Sequence record: MK327935.1
Length of the DNA stretch: 64,000 nt
From: Escherichia phage vB_EcoM_G2494
Direction: 5' to 3' (one strand)
The position numbers and the translations under genes were made by a program. Shown in pieces: positions 10,285 through 58,018 of the stretch (positions are counted from its first letter, which is position 1; every line of letters begins with the position of its first letter). A model generated the notes under the pieces. It was not told the origin of the DNA and made no database searches. It worked only from the letters and a program-made list of their open reading frames with translations.

Positions 10285-10581
10285 TCATATCTCAGAGAAT
10301 AGAATCTCTGTTAGCTTCACTGACTGCTCTCTGAATGTTAGCGTATACTCGAAAGGAAAGTCAACGCCTAATTTCAGAAGAGAATAGCCTACCGCCTCTT
10401 TATGCTTATCGGTTAGGGCGATCCTAACCAATTCCCGTTGAATCTCTTTAGGCGGTGAATGGATAGTAACACGGGTATCATGCAATGTCCAGTCACCATT
10501 TCGAATTAAGATTAACGGTTTATCATCATTGAAGATCACCGACCCCTTTCCGGTCGGTGAGTGTTTTATACTAATCATCAA
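10285..10581 (-). CDS. hypothetical protein
   Basis: ORF track 98 aa. Confidence 0.45.
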   Translation of the reverse strand: MMISIKHSPTGKGSVIFNDDKPLILIRNGDWTLHDTRVTIHSPPKEIQRELVRIALTDKHKEAVGYSLLKLGVDFPFEYTLTFREQSVKLTEILFSEI

Positions 10582-10792
10582 ATTCTAAGAAATATTCTGG
10601 AACGATATAACCGTTAAAGTCATTACACTTATAAAAATGTGGTGCATTTAATGCTGGATGAGCATTAGTAAAGAGTTTACCCTCTAGAAACAGAATGTAA
10701 TTAATAGGTCTAATACCTACAGAATCAGGGTCTAAACCTTTTTCTTTCAGTTCAGCCAGCGTTAAAACTCGTCCAGATCGTAACTTAGCCAT
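10571..10792 (-). CDS. hypothetical protein
   Basis: ORF track 73 aa. Confidence 0.4.
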   Translation of the reverse strand: MAKLRSGRVLTLAELKEKGLDPDSVGIRPINYILFLEGKLFTNAHPALNAPHFYKCNDFNGYIVPEYFLEFDD

Positions 10793-11078
10793 GATTTACC
10801 CCTAATTCATCAAGATTATGTCGCAGCATTTCAGAGTATTTTTCTACTTCCTTGATCTTAGTGTGGATCTCCACGATCTCATCTTCACTATCAGATAGTT
10901 TAATGGCAATCGCGAGCGTGCTTTTACCAGCTTTCATAGTCTCTTTCCGTTCAACCAATAGATCCGCGTGTTTCAATAGCAATTCTTCACGTCGAACATA
11001 AGCGACGGTCAAAGCCTCATCAGCGATTTCTAAAGCATTTTCAGCGACACCAACAACCATTTTACGAGTAGACAGCAT
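10785..11078 (-). CDS. hypothetical protein (coiled-coil-like)
   Basis: ORF track 97 aa. Confidence 0.45.
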   Translation of the reverse strand: MLSTRKMVVGVAENALEIADEALTVAYVRREELLLKHADLLVERKETMKAGKSTLAIAIKLSDSEDEIVEIHTKIKEVEKYSEMLRHNLDELGVNHG

Positions 11079-11092
11079 AAATTCACCTCACA

Positions 11093-11401
11093 TTATTTCA
11101 CGTTAACGCCGTTATCAATCCAGCCGACGCTATTTGGTTTAACAGTTTTACCATAGGATGCATACTTAATCAAGCATGGTTTAACATCATTATCAAATCT
11201 TCCTAAACGTACTCCCAAATCAGGAATATCCATGTATGCGGCTTTATATCCCCATGTACCGTATTCAGAATCAATCTCAACCGGACGGCCTTTAAAAGCA
11301 TACACTACACCGTGACGGTCAACGATAACATAGCGATAGCCAGCCGGAAGATACACAGTTTCGCCGTAAACTTTAACTGGAGTAGCAGAAGAGATAAACA
11401 T
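11093..11401 (-). CDS. hypothetical protein
   Basis: ORF track 11093-11437; start refined to ATG at 11401 with GAGGATTATATT context, downstream of promoter 11436-11464. Confidence 0.5.
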   Translation of the reverse strand: MFISSATPVKVYGETVYLPAGYRYVIVDRHGVVYAFKGRPVEIDSEYGTWGYKAAYMDIPDLGVRLGRFDNDVKPCLIKYASYGKTVKPNSVGWIDNGVNVK

Positions 11402-11435
11402 AATATAATCCTCACATCGTTCATTTGATGCGGTC

Positions 11436-11464
11436 ATTATATGATAACCGCATTTTCATGTCAA
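11436..11464 (-). promoter_or_regulatory. sigma70-like early promoter (TTGACA-17-TATAAT)
   Basis: Minus strand TTGACAtgaaaatgcggttatcaTATAAT with hairpin gcggt...accgc. Confidence 0.6.
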
Positions 11465-11470
11465 CAGTTT

Positions 11471-11779
11471 TTAAAAATCTTCTTCCGGTTTATATCGACC
11501 GTCATCGACTGGTTTTGGACTGAATCCTTTATGCGTGCGCGGCTTCGCTTCCGGTTTACCAGCAATCATCAAACCAAAACATTTCAGCCCCTTATAACAC
11601 ATAACAATATCAACCACGGTCCACGTTATAGGCCATACGATTGCAGCAATACAAAATGCTCCTATATCGACCTCTTTGGTGTCCTTGTCGAATCTGGCGT
11701 ACAAGCAGAATACTAGATACGAGATCATTGCACCAGTAGTCCAGATATAAAGCACATTAACAATATCTTGTGTTGTCAC
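11471..11779 (-). CDS. small membrane protein (probable GTG start after AAGGAGG SD)
   Basis: ORF track 11471-11893; hydrophobic segments; strong SD precedes an in-frame GTG near 11779. Confidence 0.4.
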   Translation of the reverse strand: MTTQDIVNVLYIWTTGAMISYLVFCLYARFDKDTKEVDIGAFCIAAIVWPITWTVVDIVMCYKGLKCFGLMIAGKPEAKPRTHKGFSPKPVDDGRYKPEEDF

Positions 11780-11789
11780 ATTATCCTCC

Positions 11790-12068
11790 TTACATGTCTT
11801 GTAGTGCATAAAAGCATTTTTCTTCATAGTCATAGAAAATGTCAAAGTATGCTTTTTCCACATACTCGCCATTAATCCAAGCGGTAGTAACAATCAGAGT
11901 GGTCCAGTTAGATCCGCTCTCAACGGTAAAGGTTTTAATACCCAGCTTCGCTGCCAAGTCGAACGCAAACCGGACGCAACCACGGCAGGAAGTGATATTG
12001 GAAGTTTTGATTTTAAAGCCACCGCGAGTTTTAGAAATTTCTACTTTAGCGAAAGACAGGTTGCTCAT
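11790..12068 (-). CDS. hypothetical protein
   Basis: ORF track 11790-12125; start refined to ATG at 12068 with AAGGAG SD. Confidence 0.45.
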   Translation of the reverse strand: MSNLSFAKVEISKTRGGFKIKTSNITSCRGCVRFAFDLAAKLGIKTFTVESGSNWTTLIVTTAWINGEYVEKAYFDIFYDYEEKCFYALQDM

Positions 12069-12110
12069 TTTGATTCTCCTTAAGAAAGTGTGTTTCGTTT
12101 TGATGTGTGT

Positions 12111-12139
12111 AGTATAAGGGATCACCGATCCCCTGTCAA
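12111..12139 (-). promoter_or_regulatory. sigma70-like early promoter (TTGACA-17-TATACT)
   Basis: Minus strand TTGACAggggatcggtgatccctTATACT. Confidence 0.5.
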
Positions 12140-12148
12140 CAACTTTTT

Positions 12149-12478
12149 TTATGATTTTAGTGAATTAACCACTACATCAAAATGATGTACAGAGCACACC
12201 TTACGAAACACATATTCATCATGTTTCGGAATCGCCCCCAACCGCTTTATTTCGCTCGCCGACACGATAAACCGTTTATCAGGTGCATTTACCTTATATG
12301 CTTCAACAACGCACGGAAAACGCGTTTTAGAGAGTTCGGGATAGTTTTCTGACTCCATCAGGACAATGAATACCCTATTACATTGATTGTAGAATCCGGT
12401 TTTTGATTTCATCAAGTTTTCTTCTCTGTGAAATTCGTGCAATCTTCCTTTCATGATTTCGTTGGTTCTTGTCTTCAC
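12149..12478 (-). CDS. hypothetical protein (start uncertain)
   Basis: ORF track 109 aa; overlaps upstream ORF. Confidence 0.35.
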   Translation of the reverse strand: MKTRTNEIMKGRLHEFHREENLMKSKTGFYNQCNRVFIVLMESENYPELSKTRFPCVVEAYKVNAPDKRFIVSASEIKRLGAIPKHDEYVFRKVCSVHHFDVVVNSLKS

Positions 12479-12719
12479 AGTTTACCCACTCAACAAGGTC
12501 TTTACCTAACTCGAAAGCCCATTCTCGGTCCTGCTTTACGTTTTGTAGGTATGGACTTTCTGACACTCGACGCAGTGATCTTGTCGTAACAAGAATGATC
12601 CCAGGAATGTTCGGATGTTCCTTTCCATATACAATAGGACGCGAGTCACTATCAATACCTTGTAAGAAGGTGTATCCTGAATCACTTAGAATCATATACT
12701 TTTTCATTTCGTTCATCAC
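12378..12719 (-). CDS. hypothetical protein
   Basis: ORF track 113 aa. Confidence 0.4.
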   Translation of the reverse strand: MMNEMKKYMILSDSGYTFLQGIDSDSRPIVYGKEHPNIPGIILVTTRSLRRVSESPYLQNVKQDREWAFELGKDLVEWVNCEDKNQRNHERKIARISQRRKLDEIKNRILQSM

Positions 12720-12973
12720 AGTTTCCTCAACCAGTTATTCAAGCGAGTAAACCATGACGATTTTCGTGCTTTTTCTGTTTTACGGGCAAATCTATCCAAG
12801 AAACACCATTCATAATCATCATTGTAAATTCCCTCAAAGGAAGCTCCAGCTTTGCGTAATTCTTTGGTTGTTACCAAGAAACTATCATAGAATGGAGTTC
12901 CTCGAACAATGATCGGAAGTTTAACACCTTTCAAGAAAGAATAATCGGCATCATTAATAATTTCAATTTTCAT
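12716..12973 (-). CDS. hypothetical protein
   Basis: ORF track 85 aa. Confidence 0.45.
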   Translation of the reverse strand: MKIEIINDADYSFLKGVKLPIIVRGTPFYDSFLVTTKELRKAGASFEGIYNDDYEWCFLDRFARKTEKARKSSWFTRLNNWLRKL

Positions 12974-13218
12974 TTTACATTATCTCCATAGATCTTTCCA
13001 TCAATATCAATTTCACCAGCGCGAACATCTAGGATAAGATGCGGTAGGTGTATGCAGTTTTCCCACCCTACGCGCTTCATTTCTGAAACAGTGACGTAAG
13101 CCCACCCGTTCGCTGTAATAAAGTCTACTTCAACCTTGAGAGGAAAGCAAGACTTTTCTATGTCTTCGAATCCGATAATGTGTTTTGTCGTTGAATATGG
13201 AATATATCCGATGATCAT
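12970..13218 (-). CDS. hypothetical protein
   Basis: ORF track 82 aa. Confidence 0.45.
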   Translation of the reverse strand: MIIGYIPYSTTKHIIGFEDIEKSCFPLKVEVDFITANGWAYVTVSEMKRVGWENCIHLPHLILDVRAGEIDIDGKIYGDNVK

Positions 13219-13649
13219 TTTGTGATCTCCTTATACTCAACACACCATAAGCGGGTAGCCCATGATAAACGCTCATAACGCTGACAGAAATCGGACCATA
13301 GATATTGTGTACCGTTCGGCATAGTTGAAATATGCGTTTTCTCTCCAACTTTCACGAAAGAAGTATTCGATTTTGTGATCTCGACCGGAGTATATCCGAA
13401 AGCGGGTTCCAAGCCAACATCTGAACTAAATGCTAATTTAACAGAATTTGTTTTTCTGACCGCTGTCCGGTTTCCTTCTGGGTATAGCACAGCAGGTTTA
13501 GCGCCTAAGCGGATAAACTCAGTGTTTTTAATAAACAGAATATCATGATAACCGTCATATTCCGACACTTCCATAGTAACAGGAAAATCGACATGTTTTA
13601 AACCTGGTGGATCTCGCATATCATGAAATGTAGCCATCAACTTTTTCAT
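13215..13649 (-). CDS. hypothetical protein (C-terminal domain paralogous to 13660-13905)
   Basis: ORF track 144 aa; shared ITKSNxSFVxVGExTHIxTM...QYxWSxFC...LSWA motif. Confidence 0.5.
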   Translation of the reverse strand: MKKLMATFHDMRDPPGLKHVDFPVTMEVSEYDGYHDILFIKNTEFIRLGAKPAVLYPEGNRTAVRKTNSVKLAFSSDVGLEPAFGYTPVEITKSNTSFVKVGEKTHISTMPNGTQYLWSDFCQRYERLSWATRLWCVEYKEITK

Positions 13650-13659
13650 TCTATATTCC

Positions 13660-13905
13660 TCACTCTTCTGTAATTACTTCATATTCAATTTTCCATACAT
13701 CAATCGCCCAGCTTAAAAGCTCATACGATTTACAGAAAGATGACCAAATATACTGTTTTCCGTGCATCGTTGTTATGTGTGTATGCTCACCAACTTCAAC
13801 GAAAGACATATTTGACTTTGTGATAACTATAGGAATGCGACCGAAAGGTGGCGGTATTACTGATTCGTTGGTCTTCATTCTATATTCCTCACTCTTCTGT
13901 TTCAT
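13660..13905 (-). CDS. hypothetical protein (paralog of 13215-13649 C-terminal domain)
   Basis: ORF track 81 aa. Confidence 0.45.
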   Translation of the reverse strand: MKQKSEEYRMKTNESVIPPPFGRIPIVITKSNMSFVEVGEHTHITTMHGKQYIWSSFCKSYELLSWAIDVWKIEYEVITEE

Positions 13906-14125
13906 TTCTTTTATATGGTACTATAACAGGATTAATACAGCAAGCACCAATTACGTTATGAGCACCACAATTTAAGCATTTATAATCATGGAACTTATTA
14001 AGGAATCGCCCGAACTCATAACCGACTAACGCCGCGTGTACTTGAGTCTCGATCTCATCCATGTCAGCCAATGTTTTAACCTTCATAATATAATCCTCAA
14101 ATACTGGTTTTGCGAAGATGGTCAT
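13889..14125 (-). CDS. hypothetical Cys-containing small protein
   Basis: ORF track 78 aa; CLNCG...CC motif. Confidence 0.4.
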   Translation of the reverse strand: MTIFAKPVFEDYIMKVKTLADMDEIETQVHAALVGYEFGRFLNKFHDYKCLNCGAHNVIGACCINPVIVPYKRNETEE

Positions 14126-14387
14126 TACATGCTTTTAATGCATCAGTCGAGGTGTCATAGCGAGTATTATCATAGCACCAATAACCATCTGTCAACTGAT
14201 AAATTAATCCATCCTTTTTAGCGTCGATGAAAGACAATTCTTTGAAAGTTTCTACTTTCTTTGCTGATACTCCACGGTCACGGCGTTTATAGAGTTTAGC
14301 TAAAACGCGTTCAGCTTGTTCCTCTTTATCGCCAGACAGATCCCAGATGACGTTTCTGATATGCTTGATTAATTGTTCAGTGGTCAT
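14097..14387 (-). CDS. hypothetical protein
   Basis: ORF track 96 aa; promoter 14418-14445 upstream. Confidence 0.5.
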   Translation of the reverse strand: MTTEQLIKHIRNVIWDLSGDKEEQAERVLAKLYKRRDRGVSAKKVETFKELSFIDAKKDGLIYQLTDGYWCYDNTRYDTSTDALKACNDHLRKTSI

Positions 14388-14417
14388 ATTTGATTCTCCT
14401 TAGTTGGTATGGTTATC

Positions 14418-14445
14418 ATTATACGGGGATTTCTCACCGTGTCAA
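14418..14445 (-). promoter_or_regulatory. sigma70-like early promoter (TTGACA-16-TATAAT)
   Basis: Minus strand TTGACAcggtgagaaatccccgTATAAT. Confidence 0.55.
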
Positions 14446-14448
14446 CAA

Positions 14449-14670
14449 TTAAATGATCTCTGCTTCACCGTTAAGGAAGAAGGACCATGTTTTGTTAGGA
14501 TAACGAAGCGCCCATGATTCAGCAGTTTTAACACCAGCTTCGAACAATTGACGGCTGGTTACTTTAGCCATACCATCTTCGATGGCAACGTTTTCAATAA
14601 TCATCGGGTACTTAGCGCCACGCATGAAACCGAAGCCAGCGGAAGATTTGATGATTTTAACAGTTGCCAT
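14449..14670 (-). CDS. hypothetical protein
   Basis: ORF track 14449-14724; start refined to MATVK at 14670 with AGGAGA SD. Confidence 0.45.
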   Translation of the reverse strand: MATVKIIKSSAGFGFMRGAKYPMIIENVAIEDGMAKVTSRQLFEAGVKTAESWALRYPNKTWSFFLNGEAEII

Positions 14671-14709
14671 TTTTGATTCTCCTAGAAAGTGTCGTGTTTC
14701 GATGGGTGT

Positions 14710-14738
14710 ATTATGCAATAACACCGGATAGCTGTCAA
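14710..14738 (-). promoter_or_regulatory. sigma70-like early promoter (TTGACA-17-CATAAT)
   Basis: Minus strand TTGACAgctatccggtgttattgCATAAT followed by conserved acacccatcgaaac leader. Confidence 0.55.
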
Positions 14739-14756
14739 CACTTTCTAAGAAAAATT

Positions 14757-15041
14757 TTAAATTAATCGAATATAACCAAGAATTTCAGCGCCTTTAGCCA
14801 GTCCTAAAACTTCCCATTCAAGGTCGCCGTAGTCATAATTTGCAACCATCAACTGACCATTTTTCATGCAGCAATCATGAGAGAAAATTTGCCCCGCATA
14901 AACTACGATAGTAATAAACTTTCCTGATTCTGGCGGTGTGGAAGACAAAGCGACCATATGACCATTCAGCTTAGTAACCAGTGATGGAACAATAAAATTC
15001 GGGCTTACCTTAATACCGTTAAATTCGTTTGTGTCTTTCAT
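14757..15041 (-). CDS. hypothetical protein
   Basis: ORF track 94 aa. Confidence 0.45.
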   Translation of the reverse strand: MKDTNEFNGIKVSPNFIVPSLVTKLNGHMVALSSTPPESGKFITIVVYAGQIFSHDCCMKNGQLMVANYDYGDLEWEVLGLAKGAEILGYIRLI

Positions 15042-26411: not shown

Positions 26412-26633
26412 TTATAGTTGATCAGCGATGTAAGCGTGACAAGCGCGGAGTTTCATTAATGCACTACCTTTCACTTCGCCTACGATGTTCATAACTTCTA
26501 AGCGGTCGGATGGATTCATCTTAGAGCACCAGATCTGGTTAGCCAATTCCAGTTTACTCATATTTGGTTCCATCTCAAACAGTTCACGCTCAAAGTCGAT
26601 AATTTCTTTTGCTGCGTCTTTAAAGTTAATCAT
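26412..26633 (-). CDS. hypothetical small protein
   Basis: ORF track 73 aa; promoter 26663-26691 upstream. Confidence 0.45.
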   Translation of the reverse strand: MINFKDAAKEIIDFERELFEMEPNMSKLELANQIWCSKMNPSDRLEVMNIVGEVKGSALMKLRACHAYIADQL

Positions 26634-35852: not shown

Positions 35853-36605
35853 ATGAGGTGTTTTATGATTAAAGTGCATGACGATTTCAAAGAACTTTAT
35901 AATGTATGCTCTGAACGTTTTTATTATGATGAAACGAGCGGAACAATTAGACGAAAATATGATTGTAAGAGCAATCATTATAAAGCGGGTGATGTAGTAG
36001 GATATAAAAGAAAACAAAAAAGAACAAATAGTGAAGATGATGTGTTCTATATGTTTACTAAGATTGATGGAGTTTCTTATTCAATTCAACAAATTGTCTT
36101 CTTGCTTACCGAAGGGTATATACCCAATTGCATCGATCATATTAACAGAGACACACTAGATAATCACCGTGAAAATCTTCGTGATGCATCGCGAAGCGGA
36201 AATGCTCGCAATAAATGCAAGGTATATAAAAATGGTTTCGCCTCTTCCGATTACATTGGTGTGTCTAAGCGGGGTTCTGGATTTAGGTGTCGTATTAGAA
36301 TAGACCATGTTATTGCATATGATGAAACGTTCGAAAATGAAACATCTGCCGCATATGCATATAACGTAGAATGTATAAAATTAGGTGTCAGTGAGTATAC
36401 CAACTTTAATAAATTTGAAGACGAAGAATCTGTTAGGAAACTTTACGAAAAAGAGAAAGAAAATAAAGAGTTTCAAGAATATTGGAAGGGAACACATAAA
36501 CAGGGTAAACGATGGGGCGCTAAAGTTAAGAGTGTGCGTTTGGGTACATTCGAAACAAGGGAAGAAGCTAGACTAGCTATAATTCGCTACAAAGAGGGGT
36601 TTTGA
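35853..36605 (+). CDS. HNH homing endonuclease (AP2/HNH_3-like), freestanding
   Basis: 250 aa; [21 protein letters not shown] motif; inserted between 5.1-like gene and gp5.4; own CATAAATA/TATAAT-like upstream signals. Confidence 0.75.
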
Positions 36606-47772: not shown

Positions 47773-47782
47773 GGTGTAAATT

Positions 47783-52751: not shown

Positions 52752-53507
52752 ATGAAAAACTATTATCTATACGAAATAAAGAACAATATAAATGGTAAGA
52801 TATATGTTGGCATTCGTGGGTATGATGGTGACATAAGTCAAGATCCTTATATGGGTAGTGGATTGACTCTTAAGAGGTCTATTAAAAAGAACGGGATAGA
52901 AAACTTCACAAAAACAATTCTCAAAACGTTTGACTCATGGAAAGAGGCAAGGAAAGCAGAAAGAGAAATAGTTACAGAGGAATTTGTAAAAAGAGAAGAT
53001 ACCTATAATGTTTCGGTTGGTGGACAAGGTGGAAATACTCACGCTGGGATGAGCGAAGAACGAAGAAAACTTGCAAGCGAAAGACACGCAGAAGCAAACC
53101 GAAATAGAGTATGGAAGCAAGAATCTAGAGATAAGGTTAGCGCAAGATTCAAAGGTCATAAGCTATCACAGAAGCAGATAGACGCGCTAAAGAAGGCAAA
53201 CACAGGAAGAAAGTTCACAGAAGAACACAAGTTCAAAATAGGTAAAACGTGGCGAGGAAAGAAACGACCAGATATAGGAGAGAAGGTTGCGGCAAAATTA
53301 ACAGGGAGAAAACTACCCCCAGAACATGTGGCAGCAATAACGCAAAATACACCGAGAGGAAAACAACACTTTAGGGCAAAAAGATTCTTCATCGACGATA
53401 TGGAATTTTATATTTTGAGTGACGCAGCTAAAATGTTTGGTATAAGTTATAAAACGGTTAAAGCTAGACTTCTCTCAGATAAGTTTCCTACATGGAGATA
53501 TGAATAA
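52752..53507 (+). CDS. GIY-YIG homing endonuclease (Seg-like) with NUMOD-type repeats and C-terminal HTH
   Basis: 251 aa; YLYEIKNNINGKIYVGI (GIY-x10-YVG), downstream R/E/N catalytic residues, repeated GxKxSxE-like modules; inserted between genes 14 and 15. Confidence 0.8.
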   Translation: MKNYYLYEIKNNINGKIYVGIRGYDGDISQDPYMGSGLTLKRSIKKNGIENFTKTILKTFDSWKEARKAEREIVTEEFVKREDTYNVSVGGQGGNTHAGMSEERRKLASERHAEANRNRVWKQESRDKVSARFKGHKLSQKQIDALKKANTGRKFTEEHKFKIGKTWRGKKRPDIGEKVAAKLTGRKLPPEHVAAITQNTPRGKQHFRAKRFFIDDMEFYILSDAAKMFGISYKTVKARLLSDKFPTWRYE

Positions 53508-54396
53508 ATGTTTTCACATTTTTACAATTCGTCAATTAGACGGTATATTGTATTGCTGGGTAATTTATTCTCCGGCGTACAAATTAAAAGGGTGCGTAGC
53601 GACGGTGAGCGTTTTATTAAAGTTCCTATCACCTACGCAAAGAAAGAAAAATTCATGATGAGTCTGGACAAATATAACAATATCTCAAGTGAGGAAGACG
53701 TAGCAAAGGTAGAAACTATTTTACCGCGTATGTGTCTTTCTTTGATTGATATGACATACGCCCAGAACTTTAAAACAAATATTGCAAATAAGACAGTACC
53801 AAAATATACGGCTGATGGAATCAGGAGCGTAACACAATATAATCCTGTACCATATAAGTTTACTTTCGAGTTAGGGATTTATACGCGTACAATATAATCC
53901 TGTACCATATAAGTTTACTTTCGAGTTAGGGATTTATACGCGTAACGAAGATGATATGTTTCAGATAATTGAACAGATTCTTCCTTACTTCCAGCCTCAT
54001 TTTAACTGTAAGATTAAAGAACTACACGGTAATGATGTATGGATTGATCGAGATATTCAGGTCACTATTAGTTCTATTACTCCAGATGAACAGGTAGGCG
54101 AAGATAAGTTTTCTCGTCGTCGTCTTGAGTGGACCATTATGTTCGAATTTATCGGCTTTATATATCCTCCAGCTACCGACGTTAAGGGGGAAATTAGAAC
54201 GATTTATCTTGATTTTCATGCTAATTCTCGTGAATTAAATCCTAGCGGTAATTTTGAATCAGTGGATCACGAGGTCGTTAAACGTGACGTCGAGCAAGAA
54301 GATTGGGACGGAACAATCAAAGAATCATATTCTAGTGATATTCCAATACCAGTTGCACCAACTCCACCGGGTCCACGTATTGTAAGAGAATTTTAA
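53508..54396 (+). pseudogene. 15: gene 15 (tail sheath stabiliser/terminator) split by a frameshifting 55-bp tandem duplication
   Basis: ORF track gives 53508-53897 (129 aa) and 53956-54396 (146 aa) in different frames; combined length about 277 aa matches T4 gp15 (272 aa); second ORF has no SD; removing one repeat copy restores one frame. Confidence 0.7.
53834..53943 (+). repeat. perfect tandem direct repeat, 2 x 55 bp
   Basis: acaatataatcctgtaccatataagtttactttcgagttagggatttatacgcgt occurs twice head-to-tail (53834-53888 and 53889-53943). Confidence 0.85.
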
Positions 54397-54409
54397 GAGG
54401 TATTTTATT

Positions 54410-58018
<3,609 letters not shown>

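What the first reader, a model, noticed from the sequence alone, without database searches (positions are those of the whole stretch)
53834..53943. Essential gene 15 disrupted by a perfect 55-bp tandem duplication
A 55-nt segment is present twice head-to-tail with no mismatches. Because 55 is not divisible by 3, the gp15 frame runs into a TAA six nucleotides into the second copy, and the rest of gp15 continues in the +1 frame without its own Shine-Dalgarno. Deleting one copy restores a single ~277-aa gp15. A perfect, recent duplication in an essential tail gene suggests an assembly artefact, a defective genome, a repair scar from the adjacent GIY-YIG endonuclease, or a recoding event (a +1 shift or a 55-nt ribosomal hop between identical codons would give full-length protein, reminiscent of T4 gene 60 bypassing).
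Basis: seen in the sequence. Interest (0 to 1): 0.8.

Follow-up and report, generated by a model that had tools for sequence, protein, structure and literature searches.

The report
Leftover 55-base assembly overlap in gene 15
The perfect 55-base doubling that breaks the tail gene 15 of this T4-like coliphage is really in the sequence, but it is almost certainly an untrimmed assembler overlap (55 is a standard SPAdes k-mer size) left where contig ends were joined, so it is an ordinary data error and not biology.

Summary
Window 53834-53943 is a 55-nt unit repeated twice head to tail with no mismatch. It splits gene 15 (gp15, tail sheath stabiliser/tail terminator) of a Krischvirus (RB49/JSE-like phage) into a 129-aa and a 146-aa ORF. 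Removing one copy gives a 277-aa protein identical to gp15 of two other contigs.

The duplication is private to this sequence. All 57 related phage records that match across the junction have one copy, as do all 22 fetched loci that contain gene 15. Twenty of those loci encode an endonuclease or gp16 identical to the window's. The junction is absent from three large contig collections.

Ninety-two other FL20 ORFs are intact in the window, so general sequence quality is good. The repeat length is exactly 55, the last k of the SPAdes/metaSPAdes 21-33-55 series. Circularly permuted T4-type genomes assemble as circles whose ends overlap by k, and authors then re-open such genomes elsewhere.

The best explanation (about 0.87) is therefore a k-mer overlap left untrimmed at a contig join. 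A real lethal duplication (about 0.08), an endonuclease repair scar (about 0.02) and programmed recoding (about 0.01) have no supporting evidence. Only the reads or a PCR can settle it. Interest is low.

The parts
53834..53888 (+). Copy 1 of the 55-nt unit ACAATATAATCCTGTACCATATAAGTTTACTTTCGAGTTAGGGATTTATACGCGT. It encodes gp15 residues about 109-127, (T)QYNPVPYKFTFELGIYTR.
   Evidence: It aligns to T4 gp15 SQYNPSPIKMIYELSIFTR.
53889..53943 (+). Copy 2 of the 55-nt unit, identical to copy 1. The proposed contig-join point is 53888|53889.
   Evidence: The blastn alignments to FL20 and phiS break at the copy boundary (window 53887-53889). The two pieces align to the same stretch of each reference, about 54 nt in FL20 (L001 10325-10378) and 56 nt in phiS.
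53895..53897 (+). Premature TAA created by reading copy 2 in the wrong frame.
53508..53897 (+). 5' part of gene 15 as it stands (129 aa: gp15 residues 1-127 plus T-I).
   Evidence: Pfam PF16724, profile positions 1-118.
53956..54396 (+). 3' part of gene 15 in the +1 frame (146 aa from the first ATG; the frame is open from 53875). No SD-like motif lies upstream.
   Evidence: Pfam PF16724, profile positions 122-242.
52752..53507 (+). Seg/I-TevI-like GIY-YIG homing endonuclease between genes 14 and 15. It is a neighbour of the duplication and not its cause.
   Evidence: Pfam. The identical protein lies next to an intact 277-aa gp15 in 10 of 10 contigs shown.
54410..54907 (+). Gene 16, terminase small subunit. 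It is the downstream neighbour and was used as a marker to fetch close relatives.
   Evidence: Pfam PF11053. 10 of 10 contigs with the identical gp16 have a 277-aa gp15.

Best explanation
The second 55-nt copy is not in the phage DNA. It is a finishing artefact of a de Bruijn-graph assembly run with final k = 55, as in the SPAdes/metaSPAdes series 21, 33, 55. A T4-type genome is circularly permuted and terminally redundant, so it assembles as a circle. The assembler writes that circle as a linear contig whose first and last k bases are the same sequence. The contig happened to open inside gene 15. Someone then joined the ends, either to re-open the genome at a conventional start or to concatenate two graph-adjacent contigs, without trimming the overlap. 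The same result would arise if this window was cut across the ends of a circular record. In each case the 55-mer appears twice head to tail and gene 15 looks frameshifted. In the real phage, gene 15 is a single 834-nt ORF encoding a 277-aa gp15. Shown here: the duplication is exact and exactly 55 nt, it is unique to this sequence, and the rest of the window is clean. Inferred: the assembler, the k value and the joining step.
For: (1) The repeat is two perfect 55-nt copies with no spacer and no other change. Alignments to FL20 and phiS break at the copy boundary, and both pieces align to one single-copy stretch of about 55 nt in each reference. (2) 55 is a standard SPAdes k. The canonical set 21, 33, 55, 77, 99, 127 is given in PMC8172020. 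A circular replicon with 'contig ends overlapping by 55 bp' is reported in PMC8851603. [quoted passage not shown] (3) The Phage Annotation Guide says circular assembly of circularly permuted phage genomes is common and that authors re-open them, for example after rIIB in T4-like phages (PMC8785237). That is the step at which an untrimmed overlap becomes internal. (4) The duplication is private to this window. All 57 related phage records that match the 81-nt query across the junction have a single copy, and the hits listed from the 1101-nt search span 55 nt less than the query part they cover. All 22 fetched loci with gene 15 have exactly one unit and no junction. The junction 42-mer is absent from the viral, metagenome and genome contig collections, and neither truncated product is on record. 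(5) Removing one copy gives a protein identical (0 of 277 mismatches) to gp15 of L007 and L012, and full-length against Pfam and T4 gp15 structures. (6) The rest of the window is clean. 92 FL20 ORFs are intact, and the only other split gene, TerL, has the same layout in phiS. One join error therefore fits better than poor sequence quality. (7) From established T4 genetics, gene 15 is essential, so a fixed frameshifting duplication in a propagated lytic phage is biologically implausible.
Against: No reads, assembly log or source record could be inspected, so the assembler and k are inferred from the length alone. Exactly 55 nt could be a coincidence. Four related records checked at their ends showed no leftover overlap, so I could not demonstrate the artefact in a sister genome. 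Tandem duplications do arise in T4-type phages, and the 1-nt border identity (A) is compatible with either origin.
Confidence: 0.87

Rival explanations
1. The duplication is real DNA. A spontaneous 55-bp tandem duplication (replication slippage or illegitimate recombination) inactivated gene 15. It was captured because the sequenced material was a defective or minority genome, a metagenomic variant, or a stock carried by co-infecting wild type.
For: The sequence as given contains it. The perfect identity of the copies means that, if real, it is very recent. A 1-nt border identity is compatible with illegitimate recombination. The rest of the window is of good quality.
Against: It would be lethal or strongly counter-selected, because gp15 is split at profile positions 118/122 inside a conserved core and the 3' fragment has no SD. 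By inference, 55-bp direct repeats would be removed quickly by recombination in a T4-type phage. It is not seen in any of the 57 records or 22 loci, nor in any large collection. The exact match of its length to a default assembler k would be a coincidence.
Confidence: 0.08
2. The duplication is a scar of double-strand-break repair after cleavage by the adjacent GIY-YIG (Seg-like) homing endonuclease.
For: The endonuclease gene ends 327 nt upstream of the duplication. From general knowledge, Seg-type enzymes cut near their insertion site and trigger repair with co-conversion of flanking DNA.
Against: 10 of 10 contigs encoding the identical 251-aa endonuclease at the same site have an intact 277-aa gp15 with one unit. 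So do the phage records with this endonuclease (TB34, SAP, JSE, FL20, MIZ4/5, AV108). Endonuclease-free relatives such as RB49 are the same at this site. Homologous repair does not normally create out-of-frame tandem copies, and the product would be lethal.
Confidence: 0.02
3. The duplication is real and tolerated because full-length gp15 is made by recoding. This could be a 55-nt ribosomal hop between identical codons (T4 gene 60-like), a +1 frameshift in the 53875-53897 frame overlap, or a split gp15 assembled from two polypeptides.
For: Because the copies are identical, every codon of copy 1 has a matching codon 55 nt downstream. The last pair is CGT 53886-8 and CGT 53941-3, and landing there would restore the exact wild-type protein. 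The duplicated palindrome UACGCGUA can form an 8-bp stem that encloses the 52-nt gap. A stop codon lies shortly after the take-off region.
Against: No relative carries the duplication, so no selection could have shaped a recoding signal. The stop lies two sense codons after the last matched codon, not directly after it as in gene 60. The fold is not better than shuffled sequence (z = -1.64, 14 of 200 shuffles fold at least as well). There is no SD-like stimulator or restart signal and no Rfam match. A +1 shift would insert about 18 duplicated residues into a conserved core.
Confidence: 0.01

Closest known systems
Untrimmed k-mer overlap at the ends of circular de Bruijn-graph contigs (SPAdes 'artificial overlaps'; 127 bp in PMC5923482, 55 bp in PMC8851603)
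   Same: A perfect direct repeat whose length equals a default k (55). The genome type assembles as a circle. The lesion has no biological counterpart in any relative. Removing one copy restores a normal gene.
   Different: In the usual case the two copies sit at the two ends of the record. Here they are adjacent and internal, which needs one further step: joining or rotating the contig, or cutting the window across the record origin. That step is inferred and not shown.
Translational bypassing in T4 gene 60 (50-nt coding gap)
   Same: A non-coding gap of about 50 nt in an essential gene of a T4-type phage, matched codons on either side of the gap, a nearby stop codon, and a possible stem.
   Different: Gene 60 has a stop directly after the take-off GGA, a specific take-off stem-loop and a nascent-peptide signal, and the element is inherited. 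Here the codon match is a trivial result of the duplication. The stop is two codons later, the stem is not significant, and 0 of about 79 relatives carry the gap.
T4 gp15 tail sheath stabiliser / tail terminator (Pfam PF16724; PDB 3J2M, 4HUD)
   Same: The repaired 277-aa protein matches over its full length (E 2e-97 and 5e-100). It sits between gene 14 (with an inserted endonuclease) and gene 16, as in RB49, JSE and FL20.
   Different: As written in the window, the gene is in two frames (129 aa and 146 aa).

Membership tests
De Bruijn-graph k-mer overlap artefact | The two copies are exactly identical and directly adjacent or terminal, with no other change | tested here: met
   100% matches and 0 indels. 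The alignments to FL20 and phiS differ only by the extra copy.
De Bruijn-graph k-mer overlap artefact | The repeat length equals the assembler's final k (SPAdes series 21/33/55/77/99/127) | tested here: met
   The period is exactly 55. The k series and a 55-bp end overlap are documented in PMC8172020 and PMC8851603. The one extra matching base is expected by chance in 1 of 4 cases.
De Bruijn-graph k-mer overlap artefact | Absent from independent sequences of the same or near-identical genomes | tested here: met
   0 of 57 phage records, 0 of 22 loci, and 0 hits for the junction in three contig collections.
De Bruijn-graph k-mer overlap artefact | The genome assembles as a circle and was joined or re-opened | not testable with these tools
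   Circular permutation of T4-type genomes and the practice of re-opening them come from the literature (PMC8785237). The history of this record is unknown.
De Bruijn-graph k-mer overlap artefact | Reads support only one copy | not testable with these tools
   No read data are available.
T4 gp15 family (PF16724) | Full-length profile match and match to the solved T4 gp15 | tested here: met
   Repaired protein: PF16724 positions 1-242 of 245, E 2e-97; 3J2M/4HUD residues 1-271, E 5e-100.
T4 gp15 family (PF16724) | A single uninterrupted ORF of about 270-280 aa between genes 14 and 16 | tested here: not met
   As written, there are two ORFs in different frames. The feature is met only after one copy is removed. 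All relatives have 277 aa.
Programmed translational bypass (T4 gene 60 type) | Matched take-off and landing codons flanking the gap | tested here: met
   CGT 53886-8 and CGT 53941-3. The match is a trivial consequence of the duplication.
Programmed translational bypass (T4 gene 60 type) | A stop codon immediately 3' of the take-off codon | tested here: not met
   Two sense codons (ACA ATA) separate the last matched codon from the TAA.
Programmed translational bypass (T4 gene 60 type) | A stable take-off stem-loop or structured gap | tested here: inconclusive
   An 8-bp stem forms from the duplicated palindrome. The MFE is -16.8 kcal/mol and z is -1.64, with 14 of 200 shuffles folding as well.
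Programmed translational bypass (T4 gene 60 type) | The element is inherited or conserved in related genomes | tested here: not met
   0 of 57 records and 0 of 22 loci.
Programmed +1 frameshift (prfB/RF2 type) | A slippery codon followed by an in-frame stop or hungry codon, with an upstream SD-like stimulator | tested here: not met
   No SD-like motif lies in 53860-53960. ATA-TAA offers no +1 re-pairing. The feature is not conserved.
Homing-endonuclease repair scar | The lesion co-occurs with the endonuclease or its cleavage site | tested here: not met
   10 of 10 contigs and 8 records with this endonuclease have an intact gp15. The cleavage site is unknown.

The most novel reading that the evidence does not exclude
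The duplication is real and fixed in a viable phage, and wild-type-length gp15 is made by a ribosome hop. The hop would go from CGU 53886-8 to the identical CGU 53941-3, over a 52-nt gap closed by the 8-bp UACGCGUA stem that the duplication itself creates. This would be a newly arisen translational bypass needing no evolved signals. It would show that bypassing can rescue fresh tandem duplications.
Probability: 0.01. Interest if true: 0.8.

Novelty: not a real feature. Interest (0 to 1): 0.07.

Why it matters
As biology it most likely does not matter, because the phage almost certainly has a normal gene 15. It matters as quality control. An untrimmed 55-base overlap makes an essential structural gene look like a pseudogene or a recoding candidate. 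It adds two false ORFs to protein databases and inflates the genome length by 55 bp. A perfect head-to-tail repeat whose length equals a default assembler k (21, 33, 55, 77, 99, 127, or 141 for MEGAHIT) should be treated as an artefact in genome scans until reads show otherwise. If the reads did support it, a viable phage with this lesion would be a striking case of recoding or of a split tail-terminator protein.

Tried and rejected
(1) I looked for the source genome or any other carrier of the junction. Exact 42-mer scans of viral contigs, metagenome contigs and genome contigs found nothing. Exact look-ups of the 129-aa and 146-aa fragments and of both TerL ORFs found nothing. The source is not in the held collections, so its record ends and history could not be examined.

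(2) I tried to show the same artefact in sister genomes. The first and last 400 nt of FL37, PTE-Eco09, ELT4 and FL04 share no terminal overlap. This was a dead end and counts neither for nor against.

(3) Repair scar from the GIY-YIG endonuclease: rejected, because identical endonucleases sit next to an intact gp15 everywhere.

(4) Recoding: I checked codon register, SD-like motifs and RNA structure and Rfam. Nothing was found beyond what any duplication produces.

(5) General poor sequence quality, such as homopolymer errors: rejected. 92 FL20 ORFs are intact. The apparent partial matches are alternative upstream starts or spurious antisense ORFs. Of the unbalanced 1-nt indels against FL20, I checked only the one at 47778, which lies in the gene 11/12 spacer.

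(6) Several literature searches for an explicit statement about 55-bp overlaps returned mostly organelle papers. The useful statements came from PMC8851603, PMC5923482, PMC8172020 and PMC8785237. One search call failed on a formatting limit.

Full report
**What is there**

The window is part of a Krischvirus genome, an RB49/JSE-like T4-type coliphage. Megablast of 40000-64000 finds FL20 (98.9%), phiS and JSE as the closest records. The local gene order is gene 13, gene 14, a Seg/I-TevI-like GIY-YIG endonuclease (52752-53507), gene 15, gene 16, then gene 17.

Inside gene 15, positions 53834-53888 and 53889-53943 are identical 55-nt copies lying head to tail. TRF gives period 55, 2.0 copies, 100% matches and no indels. 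A direct comparison shows 56 consecutive positions equal to the base 55 nt downstream, which is 55 plus one chance or microhomology A. It is the only perfect tandem array in the 64 kb. A chance origin is excluded, at roughly 5e-29 by my arithmetic.

**Consequences for the gene**

From ATG 53508 the frame reads to ...GIYTR, then T-I, then TAA at 53895-53897. The remainder of the gene is in the +1 frame, open from 53875, with its first ATG at 53956 and its end at 54396. No Shine-Dalgarno-like motif lies within 100 nt upstream.

The two pieces match the T4 gp15 family profile PF16724 at positions 1-118 and 122-242. With one copy deleted, the 277-aa product matches positions 1-242 (E 2e-97). It also aligns end to end with the solved T4 gp15 (3J2M/4HUD, E 5e-100). 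The duplicated segment encodes a conserved core stretch, QYNPVPYKFTFELGIYTR, which aligns with T4 SQYNPSPIKMIYELSIFTR.

**Is it shared?**

No. In the phage collection, the records that match 53400-54500 align as two pieces, and each listed match spans 55 nt less than the part of the query it covers. For example, 1101 query bases map to 1046 bases in TB34, SAP, JSE and FL20. An 81-nt query centred on the junction matches 57 records, always as two pieces that fall back on one 56-nt stretch.

FL20 and phiS are annotated with an intact 834-nt gene 15. Blastn of the window against them breaks at the copy boundary (window 53887-53889), and the two pieces reuse one stretch of each reference, about 54 nt in FL20 and 56 nt in phiS. 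There is no other difference at the site.

The exact 251-aa endonuclease is on record in 65 blocks of the assembly collection, and the 10 contigs shown all have a 277-aa PF16724 gene directly downstream. The exact gp16 is in 181 blocks, and again 10 of 10 contigs shown have a 277-aa gp15. Across all 22 fetched loci that contain gene 15, there is exactly one unit-like site and no junction.

The repaired protein is identical (0 of 277 mismatches) to gp15 in L007 and L012. The junction 42-mer occurs in none of the viral, metagenome or genome contig collections. Neither truncated product is on record.

**Quality of the rest of the window**

Of 110 gene-like ORFs taken from the FL20 loci, 92 are intact in the window. 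The seven 'partial' cases are gene 15, TerL, and five explained by alternative upstream start codons, variable small ORFs or antisense ORFs. TerL is split by an insertion that phiS carries in the same layout, so that split is real. The one unbalanced 1-nt indel I placed against the FL20 annotation, at 47778, lies in the gene 11/12 spacer. Gene 15 is therefore the single anomalous lesion in otherwise clean sequence.

**Explanation**

The length is the clue. 55 is the last k of the SPAdes/metaSPAdes series 21-33-55, and the canonical series is cited in PMC8172020. A de Bruijn-graph assembler writes a circular path as a linear contig whose two ends repeat the same k bases. PMC8851603 reports a circular replicon recognised by 'contig ends overlapping by 55 bp'. 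[quoted passage not shown]

T4-type genomes are circularly permuted, so they assemble as circles. The Phage Annotation Guide calls this circularisation a common assembly artefact and recommends re-opening such genomes at a conventional point, such as after rIIB in T4-like phages (PMC8785237).

If the contig opened by chance inside gene 15 and was rotated without trimming, the result is exactly what is seen. The same follows if two graph-adjacent contigs were pasted together, or if this window was cut across the origin of a circular record. In each case there is a perfect, spacer-free 55-nt tandem copy at an arbitrary position, private to this record, creating an implausible lesion in an essential gene. 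I put this at about 0.87. The assembler, the k and the joining step are inferred; the reads were not available.

**Rivals**

- *A real spontaneous duplication (about 0.08).* This cannot be excluded without reads. It would inactivate an essential tail gene, would be lost quickly by recombination between the repeats, and would match a default k only by coincidence.
- *A scar of repair after cleavage by the neighbouring endonuclease (about 0.02).* This is contradicted by the many genomes with the identical endonuclease and an intact gene 15.
- *Recoding (about 0.01).* The duplication trivially provides matched codons 55 nt apart. The last pair is CGT 53886-8 and CGT 53941-3, and landing there would restore the wild-type protein. 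The duplicated palindrome UACGCGUA gives an 8-bp stem around the gap. However, the stop is two codons beyond the last matched codon, not adjacent as in T4 gene 60. The fold is not better than shuffles (z = -1.64). There is no SD-like stimulator and no Rfam match. No relative carries the element, so nothing could have selected for a signal.

**Comparison with known things**

The gene is an ordinary member of the gp15 family once repaired. The duplication behaves like the documented SPAdes end overlap, differing only in being internal. It resembles the gene 60 coding gap only superficially and fails the tested defining features.

**Verdict**

It is most probably not a real feature of the phage, and its interest is low. 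The decisive tests are read mapping across the junction, the assembly log (k and contig ends), or a 166-bp versus 221-bp PCR.

**Seen in passing**

The large terminase gene is in two overlapping ORFs, 54904-56655 and 56636-58015, with the second in the +1 frame. Their junctions read IYIDE|CVSG... and ...ESHN|CAF..., and the insertion is 1288 nt relative to FL20. This looks like an atypically split intein with a short N fragment and an IntC of about 105 aa, plus a TnsA/endonuclease-I-like nuclease domain fused after the N fragment. It is comparable to the AceL-TerL and GOS-TerL split inteins described in the literature (PMC11766414). The layout is shared with phiS and L023. Other relatives carry a different, contiguous LAGLIDADG intein in a 938-aa TerL.

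Noticed in passing
window 54904-58015 (insertion about 55670-56953): The large terminase gene 17 is split into two overlapping ORFs of 583 aa and 459 aa, the second in the +1 frame. Their junctions carry intein hallmarks (IYIDE|[10 protein letters not shown]... and ...NNVESHN|CAFIKNW). The first ORF continues after a short N-intein piece into a TnsA-like/endonuclease-I-like nuclease domain. The second ORF starts with about 106 aa of intein before Terminase_6N resumes at the exact profile position. This looks like an atypically split intein of the AceL-TerL/GOS-TerL kind (IntN 25-37 aa, IntC 104 aa per PMC11766414) in a cultured-type coliphage lineage. The same two-ORF layout is in phiS (annotated only as 'DNA packaging enzyme' plus 'terminase large subunit') and partly in L023. 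Splicing was not tested, and no alignment to AceL-TerL was made.
   Followed up: partly
L012, L022, L030, L031 (TerL at about 10495-13311 or 12098-14914): Other Krischvirus contigs carry a different insertion in TerL: a contiguous 938-aa protein with a faint LAGLIDADG hit, which is a classical intein. FL20, JSE and most others have the uninterrupted 607-aa TerL. The same gene is therefore occupied by at least two distinct intein types in this clade.
   Followed up: no
window 52752-53507; L003 13004-13588; L010 8368-9183; L025 7498-8394; L028 7810-8394: Seg-like GIY-YIG endonuclease genes are polymorphic in the neck module. One lies between genes 14 and 15 in the window, FL20, JSE and TB34. One lies between genes 13 and 14 in phiS, L025 and L028. 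L010 has both, and RB49-like genomes have neither.
   Followed up: partly
window 35853-36605: A 250-aa ORF is present in the window but absent from FL20, as an insertion of about 790 nt between the homologues of FL20 CDS 77528-78094 and 78094-78387. It has an HNH-like motif ([17 protein letters not shown]) and a C-terminal AP2-like stretch, so it is probably another free-standing homing endonuclease. No profile search was run.
   Followed up: no
window 53882-53889 and 53937-53944: The 55-nt unit ends in the perfect palindrome TACGCGTA, which contains an MluI site (ACGCGT). Because it is duplicated, the two copies can pair as an 8-bp stem enclosing copy 2. The fold is not significant against shuffles (z = -1.64).
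   Followed up: yes
window about 21804-21819 versus L002 23543-24139: FL20 has a 197-aa hypothetical ORF (L002 23540-24133) with no counterpart in the window. Nearby stretches (window 21819-22080 and 26200-26530) are rich in indels relative to FL20. This is a variable early-gene region.
   Followed up: no
window 47778: There is a single-base deletion relative to both FL20 and phiS in the 11-nt spacer between genes 11 and 12. It is outside coding sequence, so it is probably natural variation.
   Followed up: partly
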